Below are positions 9,694 to 56,421 of a stretch of DNA of 64,000 nucleotides, piece after piece; position 1 is the first letter of the stretch; each line of letters starts with the position of its first letter. This stretch comes from Rhynchopus sp. YZ270_cl-10. Taxonomy: Eukaryota. A program made the translations under genes and the position numbers. Under the pieces are notes generated by a model. That model was given only the letters and a program-made list of their open reading frames with translations, was not told the DNA's origin and made no database searches. The DNA lies in NCBI GenBank assembly GCA_964035575.1, contig OZ037839.1, positions 558,001 through 622,000 on the forward strand, given 5' to 3'.

Positions 9694-9810
9694 TCCCCCC
9701 ACACATCCCAGCTATATTTTTTGCCATCTTTACTTTTTTTTACAAAAAATTCTAAACACCCCGTCCCTTAGTTTACTTCCCCGACGTCGAACACCCCTGT
9801 CCGGTGCAGC

Positions 9811-18148: not shown

Positions 18149-18301
18149 TGTTTCGAGTGGAGTGTTTGCTCTGTTGTGGGGGAAGACTAAGTGTTGAGAA
18201 GGAGGCAGGTAAATAGTTGCTTTGTTGTACTTTTCATTTTTTGAGCTGCTGTGGTTCTGGATGTGCAGAACAGTCACAGGGGAGATGGCTTTCTCTTGCA
18301 T

Positions 18302-18359
18302 CAGGCCGTACCGTTAACCGCAATAGGTCTCCCAGGCTAAAAGCCTCTGGCCGACAGAA

Positions 18360-33110: not shown

Positions 33111-34903
33111 TCACGCCTTAGACTTGGTCTTGTTCTCCTCTGCGTCTTCGTCGGCCTCGACTTCCTGTTGATGTGAGGGGAGGGGTTTGGAATGGGTTTT
33201 TATGAAGTTTTTGTTATGTTTGCTTTGTGCTCTTGTTTTTGTTTTGTAACATATTTGCTTTTGTTTGTTTTTTTCTCTTTTTTGTTTTTGAAAACTTGGT
33301 TGTATTAGTGTAGCCACCCTAGAGTGTGCTCCACTATAACTTTTTTGTTGATGTGAGGGGAGGGGTTTAGAATGGGTGGAGACGGAGAGAGGGGTTCCTT
33401 TTGCTTTTGTTTGCAAAAAAAACAACAAATACCTTCACGATGACTGCAAGCTCGTCGTCGGTGATGAATCTGGGTGCCTTCCCCTTCACAAGCTGCACCA
33501 CTTCGATATTGCGCGAACCTGAGAGAGATATGTCAATTCATATGTTTTTGTTTTGAAAATTTGGTTGTATTAGTGTAGCCACCCTAGAGTGTGCTCCACT
33601 ATTTTTTTTGTTTTTTGAAAACTTGGAAAAATCACGTGTCGCAACAGAATATATCCACGCCACGCCCGTTTTTTTTGGCACGCAAAAATTGTGCAAAAAT
33701 GCACCGTCAGATCGAACCCCATTTCCCCTTTTTTGTGTCAGAACGAAGACATACCCTGGTCCACCACCTGGGAAAGCCCGCGGACCGCCATCTTGAGCGT
33801 GTCGTGGTCGTTCATGTCCTCCTTGTAGTTCTTCTGCATGTAGCCTTGCGCCTTCATGTGGTAGCGGCCGCAGGCGACGGCGTTCCAGCGTGCGACGTAG
33901 CCACTGGGCTCTGTCTGGTAGATGGAGGCTGTGCCGTCCTCGTCAATGCCGGCAATGAGGGTGCTCACTCCGAAGGGGCGACGGCCACCGGACTGCGTGT
34001 AACGCTGTGGGGGAGGGGTTTGATCAAATAATACAACACTAATTGTGGTTAGTGAACAAATCGACTGCAAATGGGTTAAAATAGGGAAATATGAGGAAAT
34101 ACTACGGTGTAGCTATCTTCACCCACACATGAAAAAACGGAAACGAAATAGGGGGAGGGTTTGTTAGTTGTACGCTTCCACCAGGTAAATAATTTGCATG
34201 GAATGGCACAGAAGCCGCTTCTGCTACGCCACCTTTACAAAGAAACGTTTGCAAACATGAAACTGAAGCCTCTCGTTTGCTTCGTAACCTTTTGATTATG
34301 ATCGTCTCAAAGCATCCACTGAAATTGCAGAGCGCTTTTATGATGACCAATCCGTAATCAATTCTTTCTGTGGCGACGACGGTGGCGACGTCCATCCTAT
34401 CTCAACACCTCCCAAATAGACAGCATTCTAACATACCTGCTGTGTGTGTGCGACGAACTTAGCGAGCGACTCAGTGTCGATCTTTTCTTCGTAGTTGTAG
34501 TTGAAGCTTTGGCACTCCATACGGGCACGTCCCGCAAGCACACGCGCATCAGCAGTCAGACCTGCAAACGCAAGGTAGATGTTGTCGTCGATGTGCAGGA
34601 TCTTCTTCACTGTTCTCGAGTCCTGCAGCTGCGTTGCCGACTTGACTTCTGCTGCCAACACCTGAACGGGGGTTGTGTTTTGTGTTTTGTGTCATATTTA
34701 TAAATCTCCACACAGTTACACTCACAGTACTCCAAAATAAAGTTTGCCATGCTTGACGATTTTTTGGGGGGTAATCATACCAAGGAGTCCTTCCCCTTCA
34801 CAGCCACAGCGCACGTTCCCTTCTGCACTGCCTCTGTGGCGTACTCAATCTGGGCCAAGTGTCCGTTCGGGCTGAACACGGTAAGCGCACGGTCGTAAGA
34901 CAT
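33111..34903 (-). CDS. PSMA7: 20S proteasome subunit alpha-4 (alpha type-7), 5 exons, 245 aa
   Basis: Exons 34903-34781, 34661-34437, 34004-33755, 33518-33433 and 33164-33111 are joined by GT-AG introns and keep frame. Motifs [33 protein letters not shown] and [14 protein letters not shown]. Confidence 0.93.
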
Positions 34904-35840
34904 ATTGCTCGGTCTGTCTTTTTTTTGTTAGTTCCTAAAGAAAAAGTGTAGAGTTCCTTTTGGTGTGTAGTGGGGAAGAGGGAGGGAGGGGGGGACTCGG
35001 GAGGGGAGGGAGATCTCTACCGATTACACATCGAAGAGCTTCCTATCGGTCGGATGAAAGGGGATGCAGAGCCACGAGTGAGGGGCCAATCATCTATTTC
35101 GTGGTTTACCTCTGACATCTGATATGCGCTACTCCAGCTTCCACTCATCAACCAGATGAATGAAAGCATCATTGAAGACACAAGGGTAATTAGGCCTGTG
35201 TTATGTAGGGTCCGGTTGGTAATCATGATTGTGCAGGGGTGGACATCGTACGCAGAAAAACAACATTAGCTAACTGTAGGCACAGACTGCTCGAGGCGTG
35301 GGGTTTTGTACTTAAAAGAAAGGAATCCACCAAATACGATGTCTTGCCTGTTGAATGTTTGTCATCTAACTTAGGTGGGGGATGAGGGGAGAGGTGTGCG
35401 CGCTGAAGAACTGCGTCCCAAACGGAGGGAAGGGGTGACCGAACGGGTCACCGTTGACCAGGATGGATGCCACTACTTGAACATCCTCCCCACGCGGGTG
35501 AAGAACCTGCAGAGGACGGCCCTGCAAGGCGATGTCAGGAGGTGTGTCGGAGGTGCTCGAGGAGCAGTACACCTTACCACAACCGCGACGAGAGGGGGCT
35601 TCACCCAGGGGGGAGACGGAGAAAGAGGACGACGGCACTGCATAAAACCCCCTTTCATCTTTAGTTCAGTTGGTACGCTACCCACGCCAGACGCTTGTCG
35701 CCTCGAAGACTATATGTACTGGAAAAAAAGGGGGGAAGGCGGCAAATAAGCATCATACGAATAATACGTGATACGTGGTATATTTCTTTTTTTGCAGTTT
35801 TCCCCTATTTGTATTACCCTTACATACACCTCTGTTCTCA

Positions 35841-38800
35841 CTAATAAACATCGGCATCAACAGATTGTAGTTCTGCTCCTGCATGCTGACGTGACTCTGC
35901 CATGTGTTCCCATGTCGCACGCATTGTGAGAAGTTTGTTGCGCAAGAGTTCCTTCTCTGCTGAATCTGTGCAATCAGTGAATCGCTGAATCAGTTCTTTC
36001 TGCACTTCCTGCTGCATGCTGACAACTCCGCGCAGTGTGTTGGAGCCTGTTCTGTTTGTCACATCTGTTCTGGAAACATCGGTATCAACAGGTTGTTGTT
36101 CTGCTCCTGCATGCTGACGTGACTCTGCCATGTGTTCCCATGTCGCACGCATTGTGAGAAGTTTGTTGCGCAAGAGTTCCTTCTCTGCTGAATCTGTGCA
36201 ATCAGTGAATCGCTGAATCAGTTCTTTCTGCACTTCCTGCTGCATGCTGACAACTCCGCGCAGTGTGTTGGAGCCTGTTCTGTTTGTCACATCTGTTCTG
36301 GAAACATCGGTATCAACAGGTTGTTGTTCTGCTCCTGCATGCTGACGTGACTCTGCCATGTGTTCCCATGTCGCACGCATTGTGAGAAGTTTGTTGCGCA
36401 AGAGTTCCTTCTCTGCTGAATCTGTGCAATCAGTGAATCGCTGAATCAGTTCTTTCTGCACTTCCTCCTGCATGCTGACAACTTGACGAAGTGTGTTGGA
36501 GCCTGTTCTGTTTGTCACATCTGTTCTGGAAACATCGGCATCAACAGGTTGCTGCTCTGCTCCTGCATGCTGACGTGACTCTGCCATGTGTTCCCATGTC
36601 GCACGCATTGTGAGAAGTTTGTTGCGCAAGAGTTCCTTCTCTGCTGAATCTGTGCAATCAGTGAATCGCTGAATAAGTTCTTTCTGCACTTCCTCCTGCA
36701 TGCTGACAACTTGACGAAGTGTGTTGGAGCCTGTTCTGTTTGTCACAGCTGTTCTGGAAACATCAACAGGTTGTTGATCTGCTCCTGCATGCTGACGTGA
36801 CTCTGCCATGTGTTCCCATGTCGCACGCATTGAGAGAAGTGTGTTGCGCAAGAGTTCCTTCTCTGCTGAATCTGTGCAATCAGTGAATCGCTGAATCAGT
36901 TCTTTCTGCACTTCCTCCTGCATGCTGACAACCCCACGCAGTGTGTTGGAGCCTGTTCTGTTTGTCACATCTGAGCTACAAACATCAACATCAACAGGTT
37001 GTTGCTCTGCTCCTGCATGTTGACGTGAATCTGCCATGTGTTCCCATGTCGCACGCATTGAGAGAAGTTTGCTGCGCAAGAGTTCCTTTTCTGCTGAATC
37101 TGTGCAATCAGTGAATCGCTGAATCAGTTCTTTCTGCACTTCCTCCTGCATGCTGACAACTCCACGCAGTGTGTTGGAGCCTCTTCTGTTTGTCACATCT
37201 GTTCTGGAAACATCGTCATCGTCAACAGGTTGCTGCTCTGCTCCTGCATGTTGACTTGACTCTGCCAATCTCCAGCTTTCGGATATCTCCTCGATGGTAA
37301 GAACTTGACGAAGTGTGACAACTTCAGCAGCAACAAGTGGAAGCTCCGGTGCGGAAAGGGACGTCGCCATGTGTTCCCAAGCAGCACGAATTGGTTCAAG
37401 TTTCTCCCGCAAGCGCTTCTTTGCTGCTGAATCCATTTGACGCAGTTCGCTGAGTGCTGCTGTGTTTGTCACATCTGCCTGGATGTCGGCAACGTCGGCA
37501 TCAACGACGCCACCTGCCTGATCCACTTCCTGCCCCACGCCTACCATAAGATAACGCACAGTCTCCGTGCCTCCCTCTTCCGCAGCAGTAATCAGACATG
37601 TCACCTTCTGTATTTTATGTTCTTTTCTGTCCCCTGCAGCAGCTTCAAAGTGCTGTGAGAGCTCCTCGATATGTTCTGTGACACGCAGTTCCGCACCAGC
37701 TTCCACCAACAGATTCACAATGTCGCGGTTCTCTCCCATGCACGCACAGACAAGAGGCGAAGGTCCTCTGTCGTCCCATTTCTCGATGCGTGCACCTGAA
37801 TCAATAAGCTCCTGCACCTCAGCTGCATATGATTTGGGGTAACGCGCTGCTGCATCGAAACGGATATTGCCATTGCCCTGTATATGCAGCCGTGCACCCG
37901 CTTCAAGCAACATCCTCACGATATGGACCTCACCCGCCCGACAAGCCATCATCAGAGGCGAACAGACCAACTCGCTCTTTGCTTCCACGTCTGCACCTGC
38001 ATCAATAAGCACCTGCAGCACAGCTGCATGGTTGCTGGCCACTGCGTAGTGCAACGCAGTCCAGTGCTGAGCATCAACGAGGTCCACATCCACCTCTGGC
38101 GTGCACAGAAGGCTTTTCACAGTCGCCGTGAATCCACCAGCAGACGCAATCATGAGACATGTCTTGCCATCTCGGTCTCTTGCACCCACATCCGCACCTG
38201 CTCGAACCAATACCTTCACAGCATCATTCACGTCTGCCTTGCAACCCAACAGCAGAGGCGTGCATTGCCTCGCATCCTTTTTCTCGATGTCTGCACCTGC
38301 ATCAATGAGCACCTGTACCACATCTGCATGGTTTAGCTTGACTGCCTCGTTCAATACAGTAGTTGCATACAGCCCACCTACCTGATCCACATCCACCTGA
38401 CCCAATCCCACAAGATAGCGGACAGTCTCCGTGAATCCCCCACGTGACGCAACGATAAGACATGTGTCGCCGTGGCAGTCTGTGAGACGCAGTTCCGCGC
38501 CAGCTTGCACCAACATCTTAACAATGTCGAGGTACCCGCTCATGCACGCAAGGAGAAGAGGCGTACGTCCTTCAGAGTCCTTTCTCTCGATGTCTGCCCC
38601 TGCATCAATGAGCACCTGCACTACATCAATATGGTTGTAACGTGCTGCCTTGTGCAACGCTGTGCTGCCGCTCAAACCTACCTGATCCACATCCACCTGC
38701 CCCACGTCCACAAGATAGCGCACAGTCTCCGTGTGTCCCCAACGCGTAGCAAGGATAAGACATGTGTCGCCGTCAGTGTCTGCAACACTCAGTTCCGCAC

Positions 38801-39311
38801 CAGCTTGCACCAACATCATCACAGTGTCGTGGAAGCCTCTCATGCATGCAAGGAGAAGAGGCGTATATCCAAAAGAGTCCTTGTTGTCGATGTTTGCCCC
38901 TGCATCAATGAGCACCTGCACCACATCTGCATGGTTTAGCGTGACTGCCTCGTGCAACGCGGTGACGTTGTACTCGGTCCCACCTACCTGATTCACATCC
39001 ACCTGCCCCAATCCCACAAGATAGCGCACAGTCTCCGTGTATCCCGCACGTGAAGCAACGATAAGACATGTGTCGCCGTCGGCGTCAGCAACACTCAGTT
39101 CCGCACCAGCTTGCACCAACACCTTCACAGTGTCGAGCCAACCCACCAAACACGCAAGGAGAAGAGGCGTACGTCCATTATAGTCCTTTTCCTCGATGTC
39201 TGCCCCTGCATCAATGAGCACCTGCACCACATCTGCACGTGCTTCTTCCACTGCCTCGTGCAACGTAGTGTTGCTGTGGTTGTCTGCGTCTTGCCCATGT
39301 GTGTTGCCCAT
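35841..39311 (-). CDS. Ankyrin-repeat protein (~17 ANK) with C-terminal 76-aa tandem repeats, 1156 aa
   Basis: TALHxA / TPLLLAC / DTCLIxA ankyrin triplets, then about six 228-nt units. Confidence 0.88.
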   Translation of the reverse strand: MGNTHGQDADNHSNTTLHEAVEEARADVVQVLIDAGADIEEKDYNGRTPLLLACLVGWLDTVKVLVQAGAELSVADADGDTCLIVASRAGYTETVRYLVGLGQVDVNQVGGTEYNVTALHEAVTLNHADVVQVLIDAGANIDNKDSFGYTPLLLACMRGFHDTVMMLVQAGAELSVADTDGDTCLILATRWGHTETVRYLVDVGQVDVDQVGLSGSTALHKAARYNHIDVVQVLIDAGADIERKDSEGRTPLLLACMSGYLDIVKMLVQAGAELRLTDCHGDTCLIVASRGGFTETVRYLVGLGQVDVDQVGGLYATTVLNEAVKLNHADVVQVLIDAGADIEKKDARQCTPLLLGCKADVNDAVKVLVRAGADVGARDRDGKTCLMIASAGGFTATVKSLLCTPEVDVDLVDAQHWTALHYAVASNHAAVLQVLIDAGADVEAKSELVCSPLMMACRAGEVHIVRMLLEAGARLHIQGNGNIRFDAAARYPKSYAAEVQELIDSGARIEKWDDRGPSPLVCACMGENRDIVNLLVEAGAELRVTEHIEELSQHFEAAAGDRKEHKIQKVTCLITAAEEGGTETVRYLMVGVGQEVDQAGGVVDADVADIQADVTNTAALSELRQMDSAAKKRLREKLEPIRAAWEHMATSLSAPELPLVAAEVVTLRQVLTIEEISESWRLAESSQHAGAEQQPVDDDDVSRTDVTNRRGSNTLRGVVSMQEEVQKELIQRFTDCTDSAEKELLRSKLLSMRATWEHMADSRQHAGAEQQPVDVDVCSSDVTNRTGSNTLRGVVSMQEEVQKELIQRFTDCTDSAEKELLRNTLLSMRATWEHMAESRQHAGADQQPVDVSRTAVTNRTGSNTLRQVVSMQEEVQKELIQRFTDCTDSAEKELLRNKLLTMRATWEHMAESRQHAGAEQQPVDADVSRTDVTNRTGSNTLRQVVSMQEEVQKELIQRFTDCTDSAEKELLRNKLLTMRATWEHMAESRQHAGAEQQPVDTDVSRTDVTNRTGSNTLRGVVSMQQEVQKELIQRFTDCTDSAEKELLRNKLLTMRATWEHMAESRQHAGAEQQPVDTDVSRTDVTNRTGSNTLRGVVSMQQEVQKELIQRFTDCTDSAEKELLRNKLLTMRATWEHMAESRQHAGAELQSVDADVY
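35844..37170 (-). repeat. Coding minisatellite, 228 nt x ~6
   Basis: gcatgctgacgtgactc recurs at 35881, 36109, 36337 and onward. The unit encodes TLRxVVSMQEEVQKELIQRF...NRTGSN. Confidence 0.95.
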
Positions 39312-40144
39312 GTGTGTCTCGTTGCTGTGTCTTATGTTGTGTGTCTGTCAGTGGTGGAGTGACGTTACTCTTTGTGAAGAGGTGTGTGGACAGAGGAGAG
39401 GATAAGCACCCGGCATCACGCAGTATGGCTTCACTGTGCAACTGCAGTGAAGGACGCCTCCAAATGAGATGTGCGTTCTTCGGGATATTTCATGAGTCTT
39501 TACCCAGGATGGGTGCCATCAGTAAACAGTGAACAGTAAGCGAATAAATAGAGAAAGGGTGGGGGTATTTCACTTTGTTTAAGAGTTGACTCTAGATATG
39601 AACGGGGTGGGGTGTGCATGGGTAGGGAGGTTGAGGGAAATGAAAAGAAATGTGACTTGAAATACAATTCCCTCTCGTGAACAGTGTACCTTGGTACAAA
39701 TGACCTGTGCACCGTGGGGTGGACCCCAACAAGCAGTCCTACATCCATTTCGTGGTTTACCTCTGACATCTGATATGCTCTACCCCCGCTTCCTCTCATC
39801 AGTCAGATGAAAGCATGCATCGTTCGAGACGTATGGTTGATTAAGTCTGCGTGATGCAGGGTCTGGGAAGAAAATACTATAAAGATGACCCCAAGCCTCT
39901 CATGCTTGGTCACCTTGAACAAAAGGAGGTGCTACGTGGCATGCAAACAGTTTACCCTGTGAGAACGCTCAACCCTGACCCCTAAAAAAAAACAAATAAA
40001 TGCTATCCGGAAAACAACAACGGGGTGTGCTGTGGATATGGGGAGGCTCGATAGCCACTCATGTGCAGAAGCAGACTCAGCGTGTTCCAGCACGTAGTCG
40101 TCATCCGCAGACGCCATGCGCACCCTTCAAACTAGGTTTTGTGA

Positions 40145-43100
40145 TTACGGAAACGGCACACTGACCTTGCCGTTGGTGGACATCTCCACGAGGGAGCCAT
40201 CGTCATCAAGCAGGCATCTTCCTGTCAGCTTCGCATCGCTGCGTGCGTACATGATGGGTGCAGGGAGGGCCACCGGACCGGTCCAGTTGTAGTACAGGGA
40301 CGCCAGGTCGTTCGCCATCTTCTGGTATTTGTCGGCCTCGAGCTTCTTGCCTTCGTAAACGAGGCATTTGTACTTAATGGACTGTGGGGACCCAAGGCTC
40401 GCTTCCTGCGACAGAAGGTAGAACTCCATACCACGTGGGTTCACCACACCGGTGTCCATCACTGTGCCCACCGGTGGTGCCTTGCTCACGGTTGCCTTCC
40501 TGACGCTGCCCTCAATGAAGGTGTCGACACTAGCCACACGCATGTGAGAGTTTCTCATGACAAGGAAGAACACGATGTCGACCTTCTTGCCAGGAAGGGT
40601 CTCCAGCACCTTGCGCAGGGCCGCAACCTCGAGCTCCAGGATCAGAGGGATCTCACCCTCAGACCCTCCTTCGCGGAAGAAGACAATCTCCAAGGGTGCC
40701 TTGCCACCGTTCTTTGTCTTGAAGATGTCCACAAGCTCCTGGAAGGGTGCCGCAAGGTTGTTCGCAATGGTTTTGCCAGCGTCCAGCACAACACGCTTCG
40801 TGTTGTACGCCTTCAGCTCTGTGTCCCACGAGGCCGCAATCGACATGACACTCTTACGCTCACCACGTCCAGCACCATCGCCTGCATGCGACATCGCAAT
40901 GCCCACAGCCATCGTGCCTTCGAACCTGCATCCCTGCTTCCTCCACAGCTGGTTCCCTGCCTTGGTGTGGATCTGCGCCGCCACGTTGTTGCAAACACTC
41001 CACCCCTTCTTACCCTCAAGCGAAGACGGGCGGACCACCTGGCAAACAACGCCGTGCTTACTACTACACACCTTGGCAGCTTTGTATGCATCTGCGTTCT
41101 TCGGCGAGTCACCCGCGTCCGTCACAAACAGGTAGGCGTCGGGCTTGTTTTTGTACTCTGCGAACACACGCGTCACCTCGTCTGCAGAGAAATCCGCCAT
41201 GTCAATGAGGCGCACAGCAGGGTTCTTTCCGTTCGAGAAGTGCTTCACTGAGTCACTCAGGAACGCCGAGTTCTCCTGCCAGCACGTCTTCGCCCCCCTC
41301 GGACATGCCACAAGCAGCTGCTTGATGTCCCTCACGTTCTGAATGGGCTTGGCCGTCGTGTTCACGCGTCTGTTGATCTTGTACCTCCAGCTGGTGCCCT
41401 CTTCCACAAGACCGTTCGACTGCTCAATCACTGGCCCCTTGAGCTGACGGGCCTGCTCCATAACAAACCCTGCGGCAGGTGCACAGCCCCACTTTCCGCC
41501 CAGTTCCTTGAACGGTCGAAGCACAGCACCCGCTATGTCCTTGATTTTCTGGAAGCGAACGCCTGGTTTCACGACACAGCGGTCTGTCATGAGCTGGCGC
41601 ACGTCTGACCCGTACACCTCAGGCACAATGCCTGTGAGGCGCAGCACAGACGGAAGGTAGTACTCCACCTCGGCAACTTCCTGGCCCTGTGTGTTGTGGT
41701 TGTGGTTGTGAGTGTCTGGTGTTGCACATACCTGTCTCATGGGCTTCTTGTGCACAAGAAGCGGCTGTCCCTTCGGCACCTTCAGGCCGTACTGCGTCTC
41801 GAAGTACTGCTTCACGCTCTTCCCGTCAAGCTGCAGCAATTGTGTCGTGGTGAAGGTGTGGTGCTGCACAGGTACATACCTCCTTCAGCGGGGTCGACTC
41901 ATCCTTCGTGGGGTCGACATCGTCGATGCGCACAGTGCGCTTCTTCTTGTCCTTCCCGTCGTACGTCGTCAGGCAGATGGTGCCCCGCACCTTGAAACGC
42001 AGGGTCTCCCTCGCCTTCTTGTCGGACGCGGCACTCAGGTTCAGCTCCTCGAAAATTGTCTGCTTGCTCACAATCTTGTGCTGCACGTCGATCTGCAGGG
42101 CAAGTCCAGACCCGAAGTTCGTGGGGCGCAGTGTCAGGTGCACACCAGGCACAACGTCCAGCTTCTTCCCAGGGAGCTGCTGTGCCTTCGTGAGGTCGAA
42201 GTAGCTGCGGTTGATCTTCTGCATGCACCCCTCGTCAAGCACACTGCGGAACAGCTTCGAGAACACTGTGATCAGGTCCTGCGTGATCTTCGTTGTGGTC
42301 ACTTCGCGCACAGACTTCACAGTGACCTTGAACCTGTCACTAATCTTCTTCTGCCTCTCCTCCGTTGGGGAGAAGTCCACCTCCGTTGCTTTGATGTTCT
42401 GGTTTGCAAAGACGATGTCTCCTGCGACGATGCACGAGAAGTTCGGTCCCATCTCTGCCGAGAGGGCCTCCTGCACGAGACATCTGTGTGTCTTCCTGCT
42501 CTTCACCTCGGGCGACACCTTCACGTCGTACTGGCCGATCACAGTGTTCTCTGCGAAGGTGAGCTCAACTGTGTTGGTGACGACATCCACGGGTGTGCCG
42601 TTGATGCCGCTTGCAGGGTGCGTCACAGCATCCAGGGCGGACACAACTCTGTTGCGCGCCTCGTCCACATCCTTCGCCTCACGGCCCTCCGTGTAGCGCG
42701 GTGCCTTCTCCCCAAACTCGTACACAGGCACGTAGCGATCGGCCGGGTGCTGCAGCTTCAGCTGCGAGCGAACAGGCACATCAGCACTGGCACCGCCACC
42801 ACCACCCTTGCCCTTCCCGGAATCTCCCTTACCTCCCTTACCCTTCTTACCCTTGCCGCCCTCCTCGCCCTTGAAGCCCTTGACTCCTTTCCCCCTATCC
42901 GTTCCCTTTCCTCCATGCAGTGTGTTGGAGCCTGTTCTGTTTGTCACATCTGTTCTGGGAACATCGGCATCAACAGGTTGCTGCTCTGCTCCTGCATGCT
43001 GACGTGACTCTGCCATGTGTTCCCATGTCGCACGCATTGAGAGAAGTTTGTTGCGCAAGAGTTCCTTCTCTGCTGAATCTGTGCAATCAGTGAATCGCTG

Positions 43101-46100
43101 AATCAGTTCTTTCTGCACTTCCTCCTGCATGCTGACGACTTGACGAAGTGTGTTGGAGCCTGTTCTGTTTCTCACATCTGTTCTGGTAGCATCGGCATCA
43201 ACAGGTTGCTGCTCTGCTCCTGCATGCTGACGTGACTCTGCCATGTGTTCCCATGTCGCACGCATTGAGAGAAGTGTGTTGCGCAAGAGTTCCTTCTCTG
43301 CTGAATCTGTGCAATCAGAGAATCGCTGAATCAGTTCTTTCTGCACTTCCTCCTGCATGCTGACGACTTGACGAAGTGTGTTGGAGCCTGTTCTGTTTGT
43401 CACATCTGTTCTGGTAGCATCGGCATCAACAGGTTGCTGCTCTGCTCCTGCATGCCGACGTGCCTCTGCCATGTGTTCCCATGTCGCACGCATTGAGAGA
43501 AGTTTGTTGCGCAAGAGTTCCTTCTCTGCTGAATCTGTGCAATCAGAGAATCGCTGAATCAGTTCTTTCTGCACTTCCTCCTGCATGCTGACGACGTGAC
43601 GAATTGTGTTGGAGCCTGTTCTGTTGGTAACATCTGTTCTGGAGGCATCGGCATCAACAGGTTGTGGTTCTGCTCCTGCATGCTGACGTGACTCTGCCAT
43701 GTGTTCCCATGTCGCACGCATTGAGCGAAGTGTGTTGCGCAAGAGTTCCTTCTCTGCTGAATCTGTGCAATCAGTGAATCGCTGAATCAGTTCTTTCTGC
43801 ACTTCCTCCTGCATGCTGACTACTTGACGAAGTGTGTTGGAGCCTGTTCTGTTTGTCACATCTGTTCTGGAAACATCGGCATCAACAGGTTGCTGCTCTG
43901 CTCCTGCATGCTGACGTGACTCTGCCATGTGTTCCCATGTCGCACGCATTGAGAGAAGTGTGTTGCGCAAGAGTTCCTTCTCTGCTGAATCTGTGCAATC
44001 AGTGAATCGCTGAATCAGTTCTTTCTGCACTTCCTCCTGCATGCTGACGACGTGACGAATTGTGTTGGAGACTGTTCTGTTGGTAACATCTGTTCTGGAG
44101 GCATCGGCATCAACAGGTTGTGGTTCTGCTCCTGCATGCTGACGTGACTCTGCCATGTGTTCCCATGTCGCACGCATTGAGAGAAGTTTGTTGCGCAAGA
44201 GTTCCTTCTCTGCTGAATCTGTGCAATCAGTGAATCGCTGAATCAGTTCTTTCTGCACTTCCTCCTGCATGCTGACGACTTGACGAAGTGTGTTGGAGCC
44301 TGTTCTGTTTGTCACATCTGTTCTGGAAGCATCGGCATCAACAGGTTGCTGCTCTGCTCCTGCATGCTGACGTGCCTCTGCCATGTGTTCCCATGTCGCA
44401 CACATTGAGAGAAGTTTGTTGCGCAAGAGTTCCTTCTCTGTTGAATCTGTGCAATCAGTGAATCGCTGCATCAGCTCTTTCTGCACTTCCTCCTGCATGC
44501 TGACAACTTGACGAAGTGTGACAACTTCAGCAGCAACAAGTGGAAGCTCCGGTGCGGAAAGGGACGTCGCCATGTGTTCCCAAGCAACACGAATTGGTTC
44601 AAGTTTCTTGCGCAAGCGCTTCTTTGCTGCTGAATCCATTTGACGCAGTTCGCTGAGTGCTGCTGTGTTTGTCACATCTGCCTGGATGTCGGCAACGTCG
44701 GCATCAACGACGCCACCTGCCTGATCCACTTCCTGCTCCACGCCTACCATAAGATAACGCACAGTCTCCGTGCCTCCCTCTTCCGCAGCAGTAATCAGAC
44801 ATGTCACCTTCTGTATTTTATGTTCTTTTCTGTCCCCTGCAGCAGCTTCAAAGTGCTGTGAGAGCTCCTCGATATGTTCTGTGACACGCAGTTCCGCACC
44901 AGCTTCCACCAACAGATTCACAATGTCGCGGTTCTCTCCCATGCACGCACAGACAAGAGGCGAAGGTCCTCTGTCGTCCCATTTCTCGATGCGTGCACCT
45001 GAATCAATAAGCTCCTGCACCTCAGCTGCATATGATTTGGGGTCACGCGCTGCTGCATCGAAACGGATATTGCCCTTGCCCTGTATATGCAGCCGTGCAC
45101 CCGCTTCAAGCAACATCCTCACGATATGGACCTCACCCGCCCGACAAGCCATCATCAGAGGCGAACAGACCAACTCGCTCTTTGCTTCCACGTCTGCACC
45201 TGCATCAATGAGCATCTGTATCACGGTCTCATGTTCCATGAACACATCATGTCTAGCCACTGCGTGGTGCAACGCAGTCCAGTGCTCAGCATCAACGAGG
45301 TCCAGACCCACCTCTCCCATGCACAGAAGGCTATTCACAATCGTCGTGAATCCACCAGCAGACGCAATCATGAGACATGTCTTGCCATCCCGGTCTCTTG
45401 CACCCACATCCGCACCTGCTCGAACCAGTACCTGCACAACATGATTCCCGTCTGAGCTGCAATCCAACAACAGAGGCGAATACCAGGAGGCATCCTTTTT
45501 CTCGATGTCTGCACCTGCATCAATGAGCACCTGCACCACATCTACATGGTCTCCACCAACTGCCTTGTGCAACGCAGTAGTTGAGTACTGCCCACCTACC
45601 TGATCCGCATCCACCTGCCCCAAGTCCACAAGATAGCGCACAGTCTCCGTGTGCCCCTCACTCGAAGCAGCGATAAGACATGTGTCGCCGTTGCTGTCTG
45701 TGACACGGAGGTCCGCACCAGCCCGTACCAAAACCTTCACAGTGTCGAGGTAACCTTCCTCGCACGCAAGGAGAAGAGGCGTACGTCCTTCAGAATCCTT
45801 TTTCTCGATGTCTGCACCTGCATCAATGAGCACCTGCACCACATCTGCATGGTTACCACCAACTGCCTCGTGCAACGCAGTGTCTGCGTCCGGCGCACCT
45901 ACCTGATCCGCATCAACCTGCCCCAAGCCCACAAGATAGCGCACAGTCTCCGTGTGTCCCTCACTCGAAGCAGCGATAAGACATGTGTCGCCGTTGGTGT
46001 CTGTGACACGCAGTTCCGCACCAGCTTGCACCAACACCTTCACAGTGTCGAGGCACCCTTCCAAACACGCAAGGAGAAGAGGCGTACGTCCTCGAGAGTC

Positions 46101-47120
46101 CTTTTTCTCGATGTCTGCACCTGCATCAATGAGCACCTGCACCACATCTGCATGCTTCACGGAAACTGCCTTGTGCAACGCTGTCATGCCGAACCTACCT
46201 ACCTGATCCACATCTACCTGCCCCAAGCCCACAAGATAGCGCACAGTCTCCGTGTGTCCCTCACTCGAAGCAGCGATAAGACATGTGTCGCCGTTGGTGT
46301 CTGTGACACGCAGTTCCGCACCAGCTTGCACCAACATCTTCACAGCGTACCCTTCCTCGCACGCAAGGAGAAGAGGCGTACGTCCTTGAGAGTCCTTTTT
46401 CTCGATGTCTGCCCCTGCATCAATGAGCACCTGCACCACGTTTGTATGGTATAGCTTAATGGCCTCATGCAACGCAGTGGTTGCGTCCTGCCCCCCTACC
46501 TGATCCACATCCACCTGCCCCAAGCCCACAAGATAGCGCACAGTCTCCCAGTGTCCCTCACTCGAAGCAGCGATAAGACATGTGTCGCCGTGGAAGTCTG
46601 TGACACCCAGATCCGCACCAGCTTGCACCAACATCTTCACAATGTCGAGGGACCCTACCAAGCACGCAAGGAGAAGAGGCGTACGTCCTTCAGAGTCCTT
46701 TTTCTCGATGTCTGCCCCTGCATCAATGAGCACCTGCACCACATCTGCTTTGTTGTGACGTACTGCCTTGTGCAACGCTGTGTTGACTCTCCAGTTCGTA
46801 CCTACCTGATCCACATCCACCAGCCCCAAGCCCACAAGATAGCGCACAGTCTCCGTGTGTCCCTCACTCGAAGCAACGATAAGACATGTGTCGCCGTTGC
46901 GGTCTGCAACACTCAGTTCCGCACCAGCTTGCACCAACACCTTCACAGTGTCGAGGTACCCTTCCATGCACGCAAGGAGAAGAGGCGTACGTACAAAAGA
47001 GTCCTTTTCTTCTATGTCTGCCCCTGCAGCAATGAGCACCTGCACCACATCTGCACGTGCTTCCTCCACTGCCTCGTGCAACGTAGTATTGCTGTTGCTA
47101 CCTGCGTGTTGCCCAGACAT
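40145..47120 (-). CDS. Ankyrin (~23) - 76-aa repeat (x7) - GK-rich linker - Piwi/Argonaute (N-PAZ-MID-PIWI) fusion, ~2293 aa, predicted slicer-inactive
   Basis: Exons 47120-41880, 41830-41732 and 41686-40145, with GT-AG introns of 49 and 45 nt, both phase 0. PAZ: SVKQYFETQYGL..QPLL. MID: YKAAK..VCQVV..QIHTKAG..LW. PIWI: PPVGTVMD, EFYLLSQ, LYYNWTGPVALPAPIMYA. Confidence 0.85.
42920..44520 (-). repeat. Coding minisatellite, 228 nt x 7
   Basis: Same unit as 35844-37170, seven copies directly upstream of the Piwi moiety. Confidence 0.95.
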
Positions 47121-47518
47121 TACTTGTGTCTCGTTGTTGTGTCTTGTGGTGTGTGTCTGTCAATGGTGGAGTGACGTTACTCTTTGTGAAGAGGTGTGTG
47201 GACAGAGGAGGGGATAAGCACCCGGCATCACGCAGTATGGCTTCACTGTGCAACTGCAGTGAAGGACGCCTCCAAATGAGATGTGCGTTCTTCGGGTTAT
47301 TTCATGAGTCGGGAGGTGCGTCGGAGGTGCAGGAAAAAAATGAGGGAGGGGGGCGTGGGGGTTTCTTCTTGCTTACAGTGCACGCTGCGAGACTAAAATT
47401 GAGGATGACACGCAGCAAATAGAATAAACACAATTTCAAACAAAAGAATGCACAACCGCCTCGCCGACAAAAGAATCATAGGAAAGATGACACTGTACAG
47501 GACACCTCCATCGTCTAC

Positions 47519-47590: not shown

Positions 47591-49496
47591 ATCATACCCA
47601 CAGGCGTTGCCGTGCTGCACGTGGAGCACGCTGAAATGGGAACAATTTTTTTTTTGTCTCATTTGACTACCAGAGAGATGCTGCTCATGACACTGTCGTC
47701 ACATCATCTGCACTGATACGCTGTTCTTGTATGCCACACTTATTGACACTTATTCTGTGCAAACCACCGGGAAATTATTTTTGACTTGCAATACAAAAGC
47801 CTTCTCATGAACAGTGTACCTTGGTACAATGACTGGGGGATGCATCCATTTTTTTTTGAGGTTGACATCTGAAAATAATGAACACCTCGGTCGTCCTTTG
47901 CTTAGTTGGTACGCTACCCACGTCAAATACGTTCTTTGTTCCATTTTCTCTTTTTGCCTGAAATACAAAAATGAGGTGAGTACACAAGGGCAGGGGGTGA
48001 CGAAAGAGAACGAAACGAAAGCACTCTTGGAGCCTTCATCATTTCCGTTCACAAAAAAAATTGGAAGACAAAATGAAAAAAAAATGAAAACAAATTTAGA
48101 CAAGCTATAGTGCACAAAACCCTGAGATAAGCATGTGTAGAAAGACACAGCAAACCGTATCGCCCATTCACCCCACCCCCCATCCCACAGTGCAGCACAG
48201 TGACTCACTCGATGAACACACCTTGGAAGGTTCCGAAATAAAAATAAAAAAAAAATTGTAAGATGAATGAGCCTCTCGACACACACCCACCCATCAGGGA
48301 TATTCTGCACAAAGAATTACCCCTATTAGTTATCAAACACAAACACATACATCATTTACCACTCTCGTTTTTCGCGCTGTAACACGCTAGGTTTGAAAGA
48401 TGGGCTGTCCCTTCGTCACAAAGACGGTTGCCGTTGTAATAGAAATATCAGGGATAGGGGAAAACTGGACAGAGTTTGGTGTCGACACACACTTTCCGCG
48501 TCGTACTAAATACAACAGACGGTCTTAGCATGAGCCGACAGGGCAGCACCTCAACGTAGACCTACACAGAGGGGAGGGAAGGAAGCCAACCTCAGTGCAG
48601 GGAACAAATGAACAGACAGAAAAGGAAAACTAAATGGAAGTTGAACACGTAGGGGGGGAGAAGGGGGGGAGAGAGGCAGGGGGTGTTACAATATTCTTGT
48701 TTCATCATATAACACACTGTGTGGGCCCCCTTTGTATCGTTGTATACACCGAATAGGTGGTTTATTGTTGCCCCCAAAAAAAATCCCCCACATTTCCAAA
48801 AAAGAGGAACACATTTTTTTTTTCGTCATATTACACACGGAAACACATGCCCGGACCCCTAAAAAACCATAACAAGTCCTCCCCTCATTTGGTGTTCTTG
48901 TTGTATTGCAACCCCGGGCAATTTGCAACCCCCCCAAAGAAGTCGGGTATCTAAAACGTAATGTAAGAGACTAGGACAACTATTCACAAGACTCAGTCAC
49001 TGCACACTTCAGCCCTAAAAGAGTGTGAAATATGAGACGTGAAGAAGCTCTCCCTCAGTCCCTCCCTTTTTGAAAACCTTGTACCTTTCTCCACAAAAAA
49101 AAAGGGGGGGTCTGGGGGAGTTGTTCTCTGAGTGTCCCATTGTCTGCTGTTGCCGTGGCTAAGGCGGAACTATAGTTGCTTTCTCTTCATCTCAAAATCC
49201 TAAGCCTCATCTCGGGAGATCAAAAAAAAATGTATCAAAACGAGAGAAAAAGGTTTGATACACATATTAGGGAAATGGGTTCAAAATGACAACTAAAAAA
49301 CGTCAAAAAGTTGCTATTTCAATGATTTCGCCAGAAATTTCACACAAAATCCCAAAATTTCCCCAAAAAAAATGACTTGAAATACAACAGCCCTCTCATG
49401 ACATAGTAGGATGTACCGAGGTGGACCCTCCATGCAGTCCTACATCCATTTCGTGGTTTACAAAAAAAGAACGTTCACCTCACTCTGTAACCGTCT

Positions 49497-50981
49497 CTAG
49501 AAATGAACGCTCTTCAGCATCAGCTCCATTGCGTAATCTTCAAGAACATAACGCCCTGTGAACGCTAGCGCTACACCGAGGAATATCGAACATGGCAGTG
49601 CGGGGAGGGGACGGTGCAATGCTGCTAGACCAAGCAGGGTCGCACACATGCCTACTAGGACTCCTATGAACGAAACCGACCACGCTAGAAACCCCGTACT
49701 AGCCGCCCTCGCAACGAGAAGACTGTAAAATACAAAGTCTCCAAGCCCCAGTTTGTACCTCCTGCTTTCGTAGACTAAGGCTGGGATTGGTTCGTCGCGA
49801 CGGACAGACTCCTCCACCAAAACCTTTAATGGCCCGCAGCAAACCGCAAATATATCATAAAATGCGACAATAATGAGCAAACACCACGTCGTCCACTCCG
49901 GCAACCTCGTCATATACCATGCCATAACTGCTGAGGTTGCGATATGATAGCCTCGTGTAACAGAAGGGTGGCCACGGTAGTAAATACTGATAAGCCCTAC
50001 CACAGAAAAGTTGTAGGTGATCATTATAAAGCTGATCCAGTCGAGGGCGATCTGATAGCGTACGCACATCCGTTCGATGAAGAGAACGCAGACCCCAATC
50101 AGAACCATTGCTGTGGACGCAACGAGCCACATGAACATAACAGAGAGACAGCGCAGTTTGTAAAGACAAACAAACATTAAGGTGAGAAAGACGATAAGCG
50201 AGGTGATGATGACAGCGTTCAGCAGGGCGCCGCCGAAACGCTTCCCGCTGCTCTCGCTGTTTGAGGGGTTGCCTGCAAAGGAGATAACCGATTTGCTGGA
50301 GGTACTGGTTCCATCTATGAGGGACCCATCGTATACGTCAATCTGCTTAAACACCAACGTCAAAATAACGGCAGCAAACATCGTCATACTGACGGGGATG
50401 ACCAAATAGTTCATGTATTGGGAATGTCTTTGGGCAACGGAGTCGCCCCCTTTTGGTCGTTTTGGTGGTTTTACCTTGGGGACTTTAACTAATATCTTCG
50501 CTTCTTCGTCATTATCAGGGACAATCTGTGGATGTTCCTCCATCAGCTCGCTTTCCGCATCGCTGTCTGGGTTTGCTTCGAAGGAAGGTTCGATGAAGGT
50601 TATGGTAACTTCGGTTCTCGCCTGGCCGGCTTCTCTCATTTGCGCTAAAGTGTTTATTTCGTTTCCGTTCATGTGTGTCAGGTAGTGGTCGATATACTTT
50701 GCTACCCCGCACCGTGCTGCAGGCGAACCCTTCGCTACGGTACGCAGCCGAAGCCTTAATGTGCCATCTGGGAGCTCCACATCGAGCACACCGATTCCAA
50801 GCTTTTCATTCATCTCCTTTACTACCGACACTTCAACAGGCTCGGGTGGAGGTGGTGGAGGTGGCGGTGGCGGTGGACTTTCAGACACATCGTCATACCC
50901 TCTCCCGCCACCACGCAATAAGGGCATACCCTCACGATCACCTTCCGCACGACTCACCTGAGAGTCATTCAGGTGCGGCAT
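49497..50981 (-). CDS. PSEN: Presenilin (GxGD intramembrane aspartyl protease) with N-terminal PDZ-like domain, 494 aa
   Basis: Multiple TM segments and LPEWTTW, with catalytic FYDIFAV and KLGLGDFVFYS and the PALP motif. Confidence 0.92.
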   Translation of the reverse strand: MPHLNDSQVSRAEGDREGMPLLRGGGRGYDDVSESPPPPPPPPPPPEPVEVSVVKEMNEKLGIGVLDVELPDGTLRLRLRTVAKGSPAARCGVAKYIDHYLTHMNGNEINTLAQMREAGQARTEVTITFIEPSFEANPDSDAESELMEEHPQIVPDNDEEAKILVKVPKVKPPKRPKGGDSVAQRHSQYMNYLVIPVSMTMFAAVILTLVFKQIDVYDGSLIDGTSTSSKSVISFAGNPSNSESSGKRFGGALLNAVIITSLIVFLTLMFVCLYKLRCLSVMFMWLVASTAMVLIGVCVLFIERMCVRYQIALDWISFIMITYNFSVVGLISIYYRGHPSVTRGYHIATSAVMAWYMTRLPEWTTWCLLIIVAFYDIFAVCCGPLKVLVEESVRRDEPIPALVYESRRYKLGLGDFVFYSLLVARAASTGFLAWSVSFIGVLVGMCATLLGLAALHRPLPALPCSIFLGVALAFTGRYVLEDYAMELMLKSVHF

Positions 50982-52459
50982 TTTAAAATCTAAACGGATG
51001 CAGATAAGAGGGGGTGTTATAGAAAAGGTGTATATGTGAAAGGACCACGAGAGGTTGGGGGGGAGGGGGTGGTCTCTGTGGGAGGGGGGGGGTGAGGTGC
51101 GATGCGTTTAAAATAAAAGAAAGTGTAGAAGCTGAAAGGCTGTGTGTGTGTGGCGGTAACGTCACCCCCTTTTTGATTGCATTGGAAGGCGATGGGGGAA
51201 CCCTTCCCAGCGTACCTCTAGCACTGAGAGTTTGACTTTGCAATATAAAGTGCCTCTCATGACACATCCCATTTCAAGGTGAACAACATATGAAGTAAAC
51301 ACCAAAAAAGACCCTCCTTTTTTTAATAAAAACTCAACTGACAAAAAAACGAGTTAAAAATACGATTGGGGGGGATTTTGTTAGCCATGGCAAGCCTATT
51401 TTCTTTGGCACGTTCAAGAATATGGGGGGGGAAAGTATTTCAAGAATCAACTGCTTTCCATTCGTAAAATAGGTACTAAATGTACCCAAACTTTTTGAAA
51501 GCGGATTTTTTTGTTTTTGATAGCAACGTAAGAAGACGGGAAAAAAGAAAAAGGAATCGCCTTTTTTGATTGCACCTCCTACTGACCCACTGTACGATGC
51601 CAGCCATCCGGATGAAAGCACAAAAGTAGGGCCACTTTAAAAATGACTTTTGACCTACTGTTAACTGCACAATGTAGTACAACGAGGGGCAAAAAGAGAG
51701 GGTAAAAGAATTGTAGGGTACACGGCGGACTAGTCAGAGAAGACTACTAGTGGTGCTACTCGTCCACATGACTAGTGTTTTACAACTAGTGTTACACCAG
51801 TAACACCACCAGTGTAGCACCAGTCGTTACGACTAGTAGTTTCGCTAGTAGTTCACCTGACTAGTCTGTCGTATACGTGGTGTTCCGGAGGGGGGGGATA
51901 TTGACAGGTCCTGAAGGGGGGTCCACTTTGGGTTTGCCCCCCTATATTGACAGGTCCTTGACTAGGTTTCAGGAACACCAATATGTGATCCTACACTTTC
52001 CCCTCACTCTGCAGGGTTCATGTTGGGTTTTTGTTTTGTTTTGATAAGCATTTTGGGAAGAAGAAGAAAAATATGTACCAATTTATGCCACTGATTTTGC
52101 CTGAAATTTTGGAGGAGTTTGGTGGGTATTTAAACCCTCCAAACTGCACTAAAATTTCAGGAAAAAATTTGGTGGATCATTACAAAAAAATAAAAACTGT
52201 TATCTGAGTTTAAGCTAGTCTGATAAAGAAAGAAACGAAATCAGAAAAAGAATTTTTCGTTGATCGCACCGGATTTTTGTGGAGTGTGTAGGGACAAAAT
52301 CAAAAACTTTTCTGTGAATAAGTTGTGTCGTGTTTACATCGCTCACACCAAAAAAATTCGGGCACAACTCAGATATGTTTTCATTTCCTCCCCTACAACC
52401 TTTGCAAGGCAGTTGTCACAAAAAAAAATGGCACCTTTTTTTTTTTTGCTTGTTCCCAC

Positions 52460-53161: not shown

Positions 53162-53933
53162 GTTCCCACGTTCATCAGAGGTTTGAAGCAGAAAAAGAAA
53201 AAAAGATTGTTTCATATACGAACTATTCTACTGAATAGAAGGTATAATAGGGTGCACTAAATGTACCCAAACAAAGAGAGAGAAAAAAACAAAAGAGACG
53301 GGTGTGCCTTCTTTGTACACATTGAAAAGAAAGTTGACTTGAAATACAAAGCCCTCTCGTGAACAGTGTACCAAGAAATGAGACTCTTCCTAAAAAAAAA
53401 ATTCCCCCTGATGAACGGTTGCAGTTGGACCGAGCCCTCAAAATACAAAAATAAAAAAAAAAGACAATTTTGACAAAAAAAATACGTTTAAAAGTTGATT
53501 TGAAATACAGCACCGTGGACCCCCCCCCTCCCAACCGTGCAGCCCTACGTCCAGTTTGTGGTTTAAAAATATTTCGTTATAAAAAGCCTTCTATTGACGA
53601 CTCACCTCTCGGGTGTGCCACCCAAAAGACGAGGGGGGACTACAGATGGAACACTCATCCTTGACAGGTACAGCAGAGAGATGAGGCAACAACCATGTGT
53701 AACAGAGGGGTCTTAAGGGACTGTACAATTCGCCGACTCCTCTGTCAGTGCTGTGGTATAGTACCATTGTAGTGTAGCTGTCACACCCATATAAAAAAAA
53801 GAAAACAAAACAAAACAAAAAAGGAAAACTTTGTATGAAGGTGCCTCTTGGGCATGCACATCTCAAAAACGATACATAAAAAAAAAAATGTGGGGGAGCA
53901 AAAAAAAAAATCTGATTTCTATTCCTTCTTTGA

Positions 53934-54555
53934 TAGTATGGGGTGGCCCGGGGTCACGGCGTTTTTTTTTTTCAAAAATAAAAAAAATAAAAAAAAAAAA
54001 TCACAAAAAATCACGAAAAAATAATAGAAAATAATCACGGCAATCAAAAAAAAAAATCACAAAAAATCACAAATAATCACAAAAAATCACAACAATAAAA
54101 AAAAATCACAAATAATCACAAAAAGTCACAAATAATCACAGCAATCAAAAAAAAAATCACAAATAATCACCAAAAATCACAACAATAAAAAAAAGTCACA
54201 AATAATCACAACAATAAAAAAAAAAATCACAAAAAATCACAAATAATCACCAAAAATCACAACAATCAAAAAAATAATCACAAAAAGTCACAAATAATCA
54301 CGGCAATCAAAAAAAAAATCGCAAATAATCACAAAAAGTCACAAATAATCACAACAATCAAAAAAAAAATCACCAAAAATCACAACAATCAAAAAAAAAA
54401 TCACAAAAAGTCACAAATAATCACGACAGTAAAAAAAAAATCACAAAAAATCACAAATAATCACAAGATTTTTTGTGATTCTGTTGCGCCTCTTGTGATT
54501 TTCTCCGAAAAAAAAGAACACAATTTCAGCCGCGCCCACGGGCCACCCCATAGTA
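53934..54555. mobile_element. TIR element filled with an AATCAC-based degenerate tandem array
   Basis: tatggggtggccc / gggccaccccata ends, with an (aatcacaaa..) array at ~53998-54465. Confidence 0.72.
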
Positions 54556-56020: not shown

Positions 56021-56421
56021 ACACAGTATACACAGTATACACAGTGTACACAGTATACACAGTATACACAGTATACACAGTATACACAGTATACACAGTA
56101 TACACAGTATACACAGTATACACAGTATACACAGTATACACAGTATACACAGTATACACAGTATACACAGTATACACAGTATACACAGTATACACAGTAT
56201 ACACAGTATACACAGTATACACAGTATACACAGTATACACAGTATACACAGTATACACAGTATACACAGTATACACAGTATACACAGTATACACAGTATA
56301 CACAGTATACACAGTATACACAGTATACACAGTATACACAGTATACACAGTATACACAGTATACACAGTATACACAGTATACACAGTATACACAGTATAC
56401 ACAGTATACACAGTATACACA
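56021..56421. repeat. (ACACAGTAT)n 9-bp microsatellite, ~44 units, inside a TIR element (~55944-56596)
   Basis: Near-perfect array, enclosed by IR gggggtatacttttttttt.gttgtt / aacaacaaaaaaaaagtataccccc. Confidence 0.92.

What the first reader, a model, noticed from the sequence alone, without database searches (positions are those of the whole stretch)
40145..47120. Giant ankyrin-array-Piwi/Argonaute fusion protein (candidate novel RNA-guided scaffold)
Seen: one uninterrupted frame runs from ~23 ankyrin repeats through seven 76-aa repeats and a GK-rich tract into Argonaute N and PAZ sequence. Removing two small GT-AG introns (41831-41879, 41687-41731) joins it in frame to MID-PIWI, giving ~2293 aa. 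No in-frame Met and no obvious polypyrimidine/AG acceptor lie at the start of the Piwi part. Established: eukaryotic Ago/Piwi proteins normally carry only a low-complexity N-terminal extension, and QIxxKxGxxLW and LYYNWxG are Piwi-clade-like. I do not know of a described ANK-Piwi fusion. Inference: a small-RNA-guided module is wired to a variable protein-binding array, possibly for defence or for recruiting effectors.
Basis: partly seen in the sequence, partly recalled or inferred. Interest (0 to 1): 0.93.

Follow-up and report, generated by a model that had tools for sequence, protein, structure and literature searches.

The report
Ankyrin gene captured a Piwi copy
In the genome assembly of a marine diplonemid protist, an ankyrin-repeat gene runs in frame into a complete copy of a small-RNA-binding Piwi gene; this is likely a young recombination product of a repeat family that also joins to other genes, and whether it is expressed or useful is untested.

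Summary
One frame runs from about 22 ankyrin units through seven 76-aa repeats into a Piwi-like Argonaute, giving 2293 aa after two GT-AG introns; both splice sites match cDNA-derived orthologs.

The interpretation needs trimming:
- Diplonemid orthologs are 830-910-aa stand-alone proteins that mostly start M-G-G. Here that site reads H-G-G, so the whole Piwi was likely captured from codon 2 through a short microhomology with the repeat.
- A 97%-identical second copy lies on another contig, and public DNA contigs show a second copy with a different 5' end.
- The neighbouring ankyrin paralog has no Piwi.
- The 76-aa array is joined to unrelated sequences in 9 of 16 family proteins, so the Piwi join is one of many.
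- The slicer residues are lost throughout this diplonemid clade; the guide-binding pocket is kept.

No RNA data were found, no listed contig bridges the junction, and no ankyrin-Piwi fusion turned up elsewhere. Verdict: most likely a real, young, single-lineage chimeric gene. The architecture was not found in the papers searched, but nothing yet shows a selected RNA-guided scaffold.

The parts
47121..47310 (-). 5' leader shared with the paralog ANK2; holds a pyrimidine-rich tract and AG sites (likely spliced-leader acceptor, inferred)
   Evidence: self-BLAST 45810-47310 vs 37989-39498, 82%; sequences
44700..47120 (-). Ankyrin array (aa 1 to about 805), about 22 units in about 101-aa triplets, degenerate at the end
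   Evidence: Pfam Ank 18 stretches; 22 cores; TRF period 303
42919..44520 (-). Seven 76-aa (228-nt) repeats; predicted helical hairpin plus flexible linker; high-copy in the genome
   Evidence: TRF; copies differ at 2-13 of 216 nt; AF2 pLDDT 58, no fold match; summed contig depth about 120-320 times single copy
42910..42922 (-). Junction: the repeat ends N-T-L-H-G, and the Piwi part begins G-G-K where orthologs begin M-G-G
   Evidence: the NTLHG-V variant occurs 4 times in family member P0018; ortholog N-termini
42790..42913 (-). Gly/Lys-rich tract, the native N-terminus of diplonemid Piwi
   Evidence: same tract in P0001, P0010, P0030, P0036-P0038
41880..42789 (-). Argonaute N domain, L1 and first part of PAZ
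   Evidence: ArgoN, ArgoL1; 44% to D. japonicum Piwi
41831..41879 (-). Intron 1, GT-AG, 49 nt
   Evidence: ortholog alignment; retained in DNA contigs
41732..41830 (-). Exon 2 (PAZ)
41687..41731 (-). Intron 2, GT-AG, 45 nt (1-nt insertion in the second copy)
   Evidence: gene calls P0006 and P0007 begin with intron-like sequence at this site
40145..41686 (-). Exon 3: end of PAZ, L2, MID, PIWI; MID Y-K-Q-K kept, slicer residues replaced
   Evidence: Pfam Piwi; alignment; PDB and Foldseek best hit Siwi
35841..39311 (-). Tandem paralog ANK2: ankyrin array plus about six 76-aa repeats, ends in a stop, no Piwi
   Evidence: 82-95% nt to ANK1
39622..39987 (.). Very high-copy non-coding sequence between the Piwi 3' end and ANK2; pieces recur near ANK2's end and upstream of ANK1
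   Evidence: summed depth above 200,000 in one bin; self-BLAST to 35091-35215, 47782-47833, 49420-49461, 53323-53372

Best explanation
An ankyrin gene with a 76-residue repeat array runs in frame into a whole Piwi-like Argonaute, and this is likely a young chimeric gene made by DNA-level recombination rather than a long-selected machine. Shown: the in-frame join in the assembly, the two retained introns, a 97%-identical second Piwi on another contig, a Piwi-less tandem paralog, and the repeat array joined to other unrelated sequences. Inferred: (1) a Piwi duplicate, introns included, was copied into one member of the high-copy ANK-repeat family; (2) the crossover used a few shared bases between the repeat's T-L-H-G codons and the Piwi M-G-G start, replacing Met with His and keeping the frame; (3) the chimera would be transcribed and trans-spliced from the ANK gene's leader; (4) the protein would load small-RNA guides through its intact MID pocket and PAZ but, like all its diplonemid orthologs, would not cut targets, and would carry a 1400-aa protein-binding head on a long helical spacer; (5) the second copy likely does the ordinary job, so the chimera is tolerated and under relaxed constraint, at most relocalising or soaking up guides.
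For: Six of seven close orthologs whose N-termini were printed start M-G-G plus a GK tract, as does metagenome locus L001; the window has H-G-G. The NTLHG variant of the repeat exists in P0018 on the same-length contig, so no assembly indel is needed to explain the junction. Second copy: P0006, 97% identical, on a 955-kb contig. Piwi-body depth is up to about twice that of the copy-specific contigs in X1 and X2. Family promiscuity: 9 of 16 repeat-bearing proteins have a foreign flank over 100 aa, including a kinase fragment (P0021) and a P-loop region (P0025); 11 of 16 lie on the window's contig length. GC3 changes from 0.46 in the repeats to 0.75 in the Piwi part. Of 16 differences in 513 aa between the copies, 11 can be polarised and 9 are derived in the fused copy (two-sided p 0.065). 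No ankyrin in 139 of 139 Piwi-N hits or 25 of 25 metagenome loci.
Against: No listed contig bridges the junction. The 2293-codon frame is intact and differences are mostly synonymous: 27 synonymous to 9 non-synonymous codons among 38 listed sites tested (40 listed of 85, a biased mix of copies and strains), and a rough pN/pS of about 0.4 in MID-PIWI. That fits selection on the fused copy as well as selection before the fusion. Window-type Piwi sequence is present in both studies (41026-41189 with no differences in all four runs), so it is not private to one data set. The two copies could be alleles rather than paralogs; ploidy is unknown. The 9:2 skew is weak and uses distant outgroups. The absence searches are weak: the representative library did not return the window's own protein.
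Confidence: 0.66

Rival explanations
1. The fusion is expressed and selected: a slicer-dead, guide-loaded Piwi uses its ankyrin head to bring partner proteins (or a foreign protein it senses) to RNA or chromatin targets, as one output of a repeat-driven domain-shuffling system.
For: Intact frame, whole Piwi captured, MID pocket kept. Mostly synonymous divergence. Several partners of the repeat look like signalling domains. An ankyrin protein, GASZ, recruits the Piwi protein MILI in mice (PMC12507516, passages), although through its first 20 residues, not the ankyrin units.
Against: Seen in one assembly only. The named orthologs are unfused, apart from a different fusion in Namystynia. Derived changes pile up in the fused copy. 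Several family chimeras look like gene fragments (the kinase match covers profile positions 103-148 of 263).
Confidence: 0.13
2. The junction, or the link between this ankyrin head and this repeat array, is an assembly artefact.
For: The repeat has on the order of 100-300 copies; a close paralog lies 650 nt downstream; no listed record bridges the junction; X4 lists only the other copy at 42795.
Against: A mis-join through the repeats would still need this Piwi copy to be preceded by repeats. Copy-specific window sequence is present at single-copy depth in all four runs. A depth budget of bin 42794-42915 leaves about 89, 105 and 108 unexplained in X1, X2 and X4, i.e. about one copy of window-type sequence up to the junction (rough). 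The seven units differ from each other, so the array is not collapsed.
Confidence: 0.12
3. The DNA join is real but the giant protein is not the main product: spliced-leader addition inside the repeat array gives a near-normal Piwi starting at an in-frame Met of the last repeat (34-aa tag), or the locus is silent.
For: In-frame ATGs at 43130, 43037 and 43016. Essentially all D. papillatum mRNAs carry a spliced leader and clustered genes are processed from polycistronic RNA (PMC10161547, passages).
Against: The one repeat AG scored correctly has 6 G in its upstream 25 nt, against 0-3 at the intron acceptors (five of six intron positions fell on the AG). ANK1 has the same leader as ANK2. All ATGs between 43016 and 42452 are out of frame.
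Confidence: 0.09

Closest known systems
Diplonemid Piwi proteins (D. papillatum 'Piwi' P0001; R. euleeides P0008; R. humris P0030; Flectonema P0010; D. japonicum P0036)
   Same: 43-58% identical in MID-PIWI; same GK-rich start, same non-canonical slicer site; one clade with 100% SH-aLRT in a quick tree.
   Different: They are 828-912 aa and stand alone; this copy lacks its own Met and has 1402 aa in front.
Animal PIWI clade (silkworm Siwi, 5GUH) and AGO clade
   Same: N-L1-PAZ-L2-MID-PIWI order; best sequence and fold hit is Siwi (82.8 bits; Foldseek E 2e-25).
   Different: Human AGO1 scores nearly as well (73.4 bits; AGO2 E 9e-25). The D-E-D-H slicer site is replaced. Membership of the PIWI clade is not resolved.
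GASZ/ASZ1-MILI (mouse piRNA pathway)
   Same: An ankyrin protein tethers a Piwi protein through its low-complexity N-terminus (PMC12507516, passages).
   Different: Two separate proteins; four ankyrin units; binding is through GASZ residues 2-20; conserved and tested.
Plant Argonaute gene models with extra domains (e.g. FvAGO1 with an alpha-crystallin domain before PAZ)
   Same: Single-species Argonaute models with a foreign N-terminal domain (PMC4181786, one passage).
   Different: In-silico models, no ankyrin fusion stated in the passage read; no shuffling repeat family described there.
PIWI-tryp of trypanosomatids
   Same: A divergent euglenozoan AGO/PIWI group (PMC9935688, passages).
   Different: No PIWI-tryp sequence was compared here; a relation is untested.
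Effector-fused prokaryotic Argonautes and plant NLRs with integrated domains (recalled, from no call)
   Same: A catalytically dead guide-binding module joined to another module; a repeat receptor that picks up foreign domains.
   Different: Those are conserved, tested immune systems; here only one genome and no function.

Membership tests
Eukaryotic Argonaute/Piwi family | N-L1-PAZ-L2-MID-PIWI domain order and fold | tested here: met
   Pfam ArgoN, ArgoL1, PAZ (weak), Piwi; Foldseek probability 1.0 to Siwi and AGO
Eukaryotic Argonaute/Piwi family | MID 5'-phosphate pocket (Y, K, Q, K; role recalled) | tested here: met
   Y201, K205, Q216, K242 of exon 3 invariant across 11 sequences including a fish PIWIL2 and an unnamed AGO-type protein
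Eukaryotic Argonaute/Piwi family | Binds small-RNA guides | not testable with these tools
   needs immunoprecipitation and small-RNA sequencing
Slicer-active Argonaute | Catalytic D-E-D-H/D residues | tested here: not met
   first Asp is Ala (Ala or Ser in all 9 diplonemid rows), second Asp is Glu in all 9, His position is Arg
PIWI clade proper | Groups with animal PIWI to the exclusion of AGO | tested here: inconclusive
   quick tree only, one animal PIWI, long branches, midpoint root; score margin over AGO is small
Diplonemid Piwi ortholog group | Monophyly with diplonemid Piwis and shared motifs | tested here: met
   10-row clade, SH-aLRT 100 (quick tree, 32 rows; L014, L019 and L023-L025 left out)
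Conserved ANK-Piwi fusion family | Same architecture in other species | tested here: not met
   0 of 5 longer hits, 0 of 139 and 0 of 25 carry ankyrin; the 5 near-length hits are too short to hold one; searches are of limited reach
Young chimeric gene | Both parent types present and closely similar; junction explained by local homology | tested here: met
   ANK2 at 82-95% nt; second Piwi 97% aa; NTLHG variant. The parent's 5' sequence itself was not read.
Young chimeric gene | Junction present in raw reads | tested here: inconclusive
Young chimeric gene | Transcribed across the junction | not testable with these tools
   needs long cDNA reads or RT-PCR from this organism

The most novel reading that the evidence does not exclude
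The 76-aa repeat array is a gene-capture hub that lets this diplonemid couple a variable ankyrin sensor to interchangeable outputs (kinase, P-loop protein, membrane segment, Piwi), and the ANK-Piwi member is an expressed, non-cutting, RNA-guided recruiter of proteins: a eukaryotic Argonaute covalently wired to a receptor-like array.
Probability: 0.13. Interest if true: 0.85.

Novelty: new variant of a known kind. Interest (0 to 1): 0.45.

Why it matters
If expressed, it would be a natural test of whether a eukaryotic Argonaute tolerates a 1400-aa folded head, and a rare gene fusion caught with both parent types still present. Two by-products may matter more than the fusion. One is a diplonemid-wide Piwi lineage that lacks the canonical slicer residues. 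The other is a high-copy coding repeat that appears to shuffle domains in one genome. If the locus is silent or mis-joined, the fusion itself is only a curiosity.

Tried and rejected
- No whole genome is held for this window, so the second Piwi locus could not be read directly.
- Sequencing runs: no RNA holder listed; this is no evidence on expression. A closer read-level view of the junction was not obtained.
- Idea that a lost G in a homopolymer hides a native in-frame ATG at 42916: set aside, because the NTLHG codons exist as a repeat variant; not excluded without reads.
- Retroposition: rejected, both introns are present.
- A joint 39867 to 43074 in three runs looks like an empty site, but both sides are high-copy and only 30 letters lie on the short side, so it was not used.
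- Two window genes found in the collection have no transcriptome-derived cluster mates; a third was not found. No transcriptome of this species was available to me.
- The 76-aa unit gave no Atlas hit, a low-confidence model and no fold match. Its Pfam hits (XRCC4_CC, DUF5770, TetR_C_19 and others) have zero passing stretches and were rejected.
- A junction hot spot at N-T-L: 4 of 16 arrays end there, about 3 independent events, but the profile also ends near there, so this is only a hint.
- The careful tree did not finish.
- Three look-ups of earlier findings returned nothing.
- Supplements of PMC10161547: 7 files searched, 0 hits. Its Additional file 1, which holds the RNAi section, was too large to read and may describe the Piwi clade and its catalytic site.
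- In one search four of ten acceptor coordinates missed the AG and were not used.

Full report
Observation. The minus strand holds a stop-free frame 41826-47159 and a second frame 40145-41884. Pfam places 18 ankyrin stretches, ArgoN and ArgoL1 in the first and Piwi with weak PAZ in the second. Removing GT-AG introns at 41831-41879 and 41687-41731 gives 2293 aa. The splice points match transcript-derived diplonemid orthologs, and the second genomic copy has a 1-nt insertion in intron 2. There are 22 ankyrin-type cores and 7.0 copies of a 228-nt unit.

Organism and context. The closest named proteins are Piwis of Rhynchopus euleeides (57%), R. humris (52%), Flectonema (44%) and Diplonema papillatum (43%), so the host is a Rhynchopus-like diplonemid (inference). 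D. papillatum has five Piwi and three Argonaute genes, and essentially all its mRNAs carry a spliced leader (PMC10161547, passages). Directly downstream lies a tandem paralog, ANK2 (35841-39311), with the same leader, a shorter ankyrin array and about six repeats, ending in a stop with no Piwi.

The Piwi part is a whole, ordinary diplonemid Piwi. Six of seven close orthologs whose N-termini I printed start M-G-G followed by a 45-55-aa Gly/Lys tract; the seventh (R. euleeides) lacks the tract. The window reads N-T-L-H-G-G-K at the junction, so the GK tract is the native N-terminus, and the gene was captured from about codon 2 (inference). The repeat variant N-T-L-H-G-V occurs four times in family member P0018, so the bases up to H-G come from the repeat and a short microhomology explains an in-frame crossover. 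GC3 is 0.46 in the repeats and 0.75 in the Piwi part. Both introns are retained, so the copy was made at DNA level.

A second copy exists. P0006 is 97% identical over exon 3 and lies on a 955,373-nt contig; the window's proteins lie on a 1,487,168-nt contig. Four public contig sets from two studies, which retain the introns and so look like DNA, cover the Piwi body. In X1 and X2 shared stretches reach about twice the depth of copy-specific ones. I read this as an unfused copy; its 5' sequence was not shown. The copies could be alleles. One of the two studies may be the source of the assembly.

Is the junction real? No listed record bridges it, but only 32 of 8219 pieces were shown and short-read contigs stop at a repeat of 100-300 copies. 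Window-type sequence at 41026-41189 is present without differences in all four runs. A rough depth budget for 42794-42915 leaves about one copy's worth of depth in X1, X2 and X4 after subtracting the other copy and the listed repeat contigs. X4 lists only the other copy at 42795, which counts against. The seven units differ at 2-13 of 216 nt. I put the chance of an artefact near 0.12.

The repeat array is promiscuous. Nine of 16 have a foreign flank over 100 aa: Piwi, a kinase fragment (P0021), a P-loop region (P0025), a hydrophobic tail (P0020) and unassigned sequences; one has repeats before the ankyrins (P0022); P0015's tail resembles P0024's head, 45% over 106 aa. These look like intron-blind gene calls, so some flanks may be read-through. 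The Piwi join is one product of a shuffling family.

What the protein would do. The MID pocket residues are invariant with a fish PIWIL2 and an AGO-type protein, and the model matches Siwi and AGO folds. The slicer positions read Ala, Glu and Arg in place of Asp, Asp and His; the first two replacements are shared by all nine diplonemid rows, so loss of slicing predates the fusion. If made, the chimera would bind guides without cutting and carry an ankyrin head on a helical spacer of about 570 aa (low-confidence model). The two copies differ at 16 of 513 aa; 9 of 11 polarisable changes are derived in the fused copy (two-sided p 0.065). Listed base differences are mostly synonymous (27 to 9 codons; 38 sites tested of 40 listed, 85 in all), which fits selection before or after the fusion. 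A short product from the in-frame Met at 43016 is possible.

Comparison and novelty. No ankyrin was found in 139 of 139 Piwi-N hits, 25 of 25 metagenome loci or the 5 longer homologs. These searches are weak; the representative library did not return the window's own protein. Six paper searches gave no described ANK-Piwi fusion; of their hits I read passages of PMC10161547, PMC4181786 and PMC12507516 and saw the rest as listings only. PMC9935688 was read as passages; one search was a listing only. The library lacks most subscription journals. GASZ-MILI is the nearest functional analogy but is a two-protein interaction not mediated by the ankyrin units.

Verdict. Young chimeric gene from a recombination-prone repeat family, 0.66; selected RNA-guided scaffold, 0.13; assembly artefact, 0.12; short or no product, 0.09. 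New variant of a known kind; interest 0.45.

Noticed in passing
P0002 (Namystynia karyoxenos transcript, 1411 aa): A second fusion in this Piwi clade: Rrp15p domain (aa 93-228) before the GK tract and Piwi, plus about 200 extra C-terminal residues, in two Trinity isoforms. Its sister L001 starts normally. May be an assembly chimera or read-through of a polycistronic precursor.
   Followed up: partly
alignment A1: All nine diplonemid Piwi rows lack the canonical slicer aspartates yet keep an invariant R-E-G-G-S-E-G-E stretch; seven or more keep a downstream Asp two residues after the usual His position. A non-slicing or altered-site lineage.
   Followed up: partly
P0011-P0026: A 76-aa helical repeat of no known family, 100-300 genomic copies, joined to ankyrins, kinase fragments, a P-loop region and other tails; mosaic pieces are shared between members. 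P0016's tail looks like a nucleotide-cyclase fragment (recalled resemblance, untested).
   Followed up: partly
window 39622-39987: Non-coding sequence with summed contig depth above 200,000 (about 2000 times single copy) and many divergent variants; pieces recur at 35091-35215, 47782-47833, 49420-49461 and 53323-53372. Possibly a SINE- or MITE-like element.
   Followed up: no
window 3703-10902 and 16529-18313: Tandem family of five genes with a ubiquitin-like-looking N-terminus and leucine-rich repeats (names by eye, not scanned); two further related beta-propeller-like ORFs at 1809-2864 and 13776-14960 share a similar N-terminal layout.
   Followed up: no
window 49497-51107: Intronless presenilin (Pfam E 1.7e-77) with a weak N-terminal PDZ-like hit (E 0.043).
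   Followed up: no
window 33112-34903 and 30002-30907: A proteasome alpha-subunit-like gene with four GT-AG introns (read by eye) and an intronless SNF1/CIPK-like kinase (by eye).
   Followed up: no
window 56021-56427 and 53991-54466: A 45-copy 9-nt satellite (99% matches) and an A-rich 10-nt array.
   Followed up: no
runs X1-X4: Depth of the other Piwi copy relative to the window copy is about 1:1 in X1 and X2 but about 2:1 in X4, hinting at copy-number or presence-absence variation between samples. Contig depth is a poor measure.
   Followed up: no
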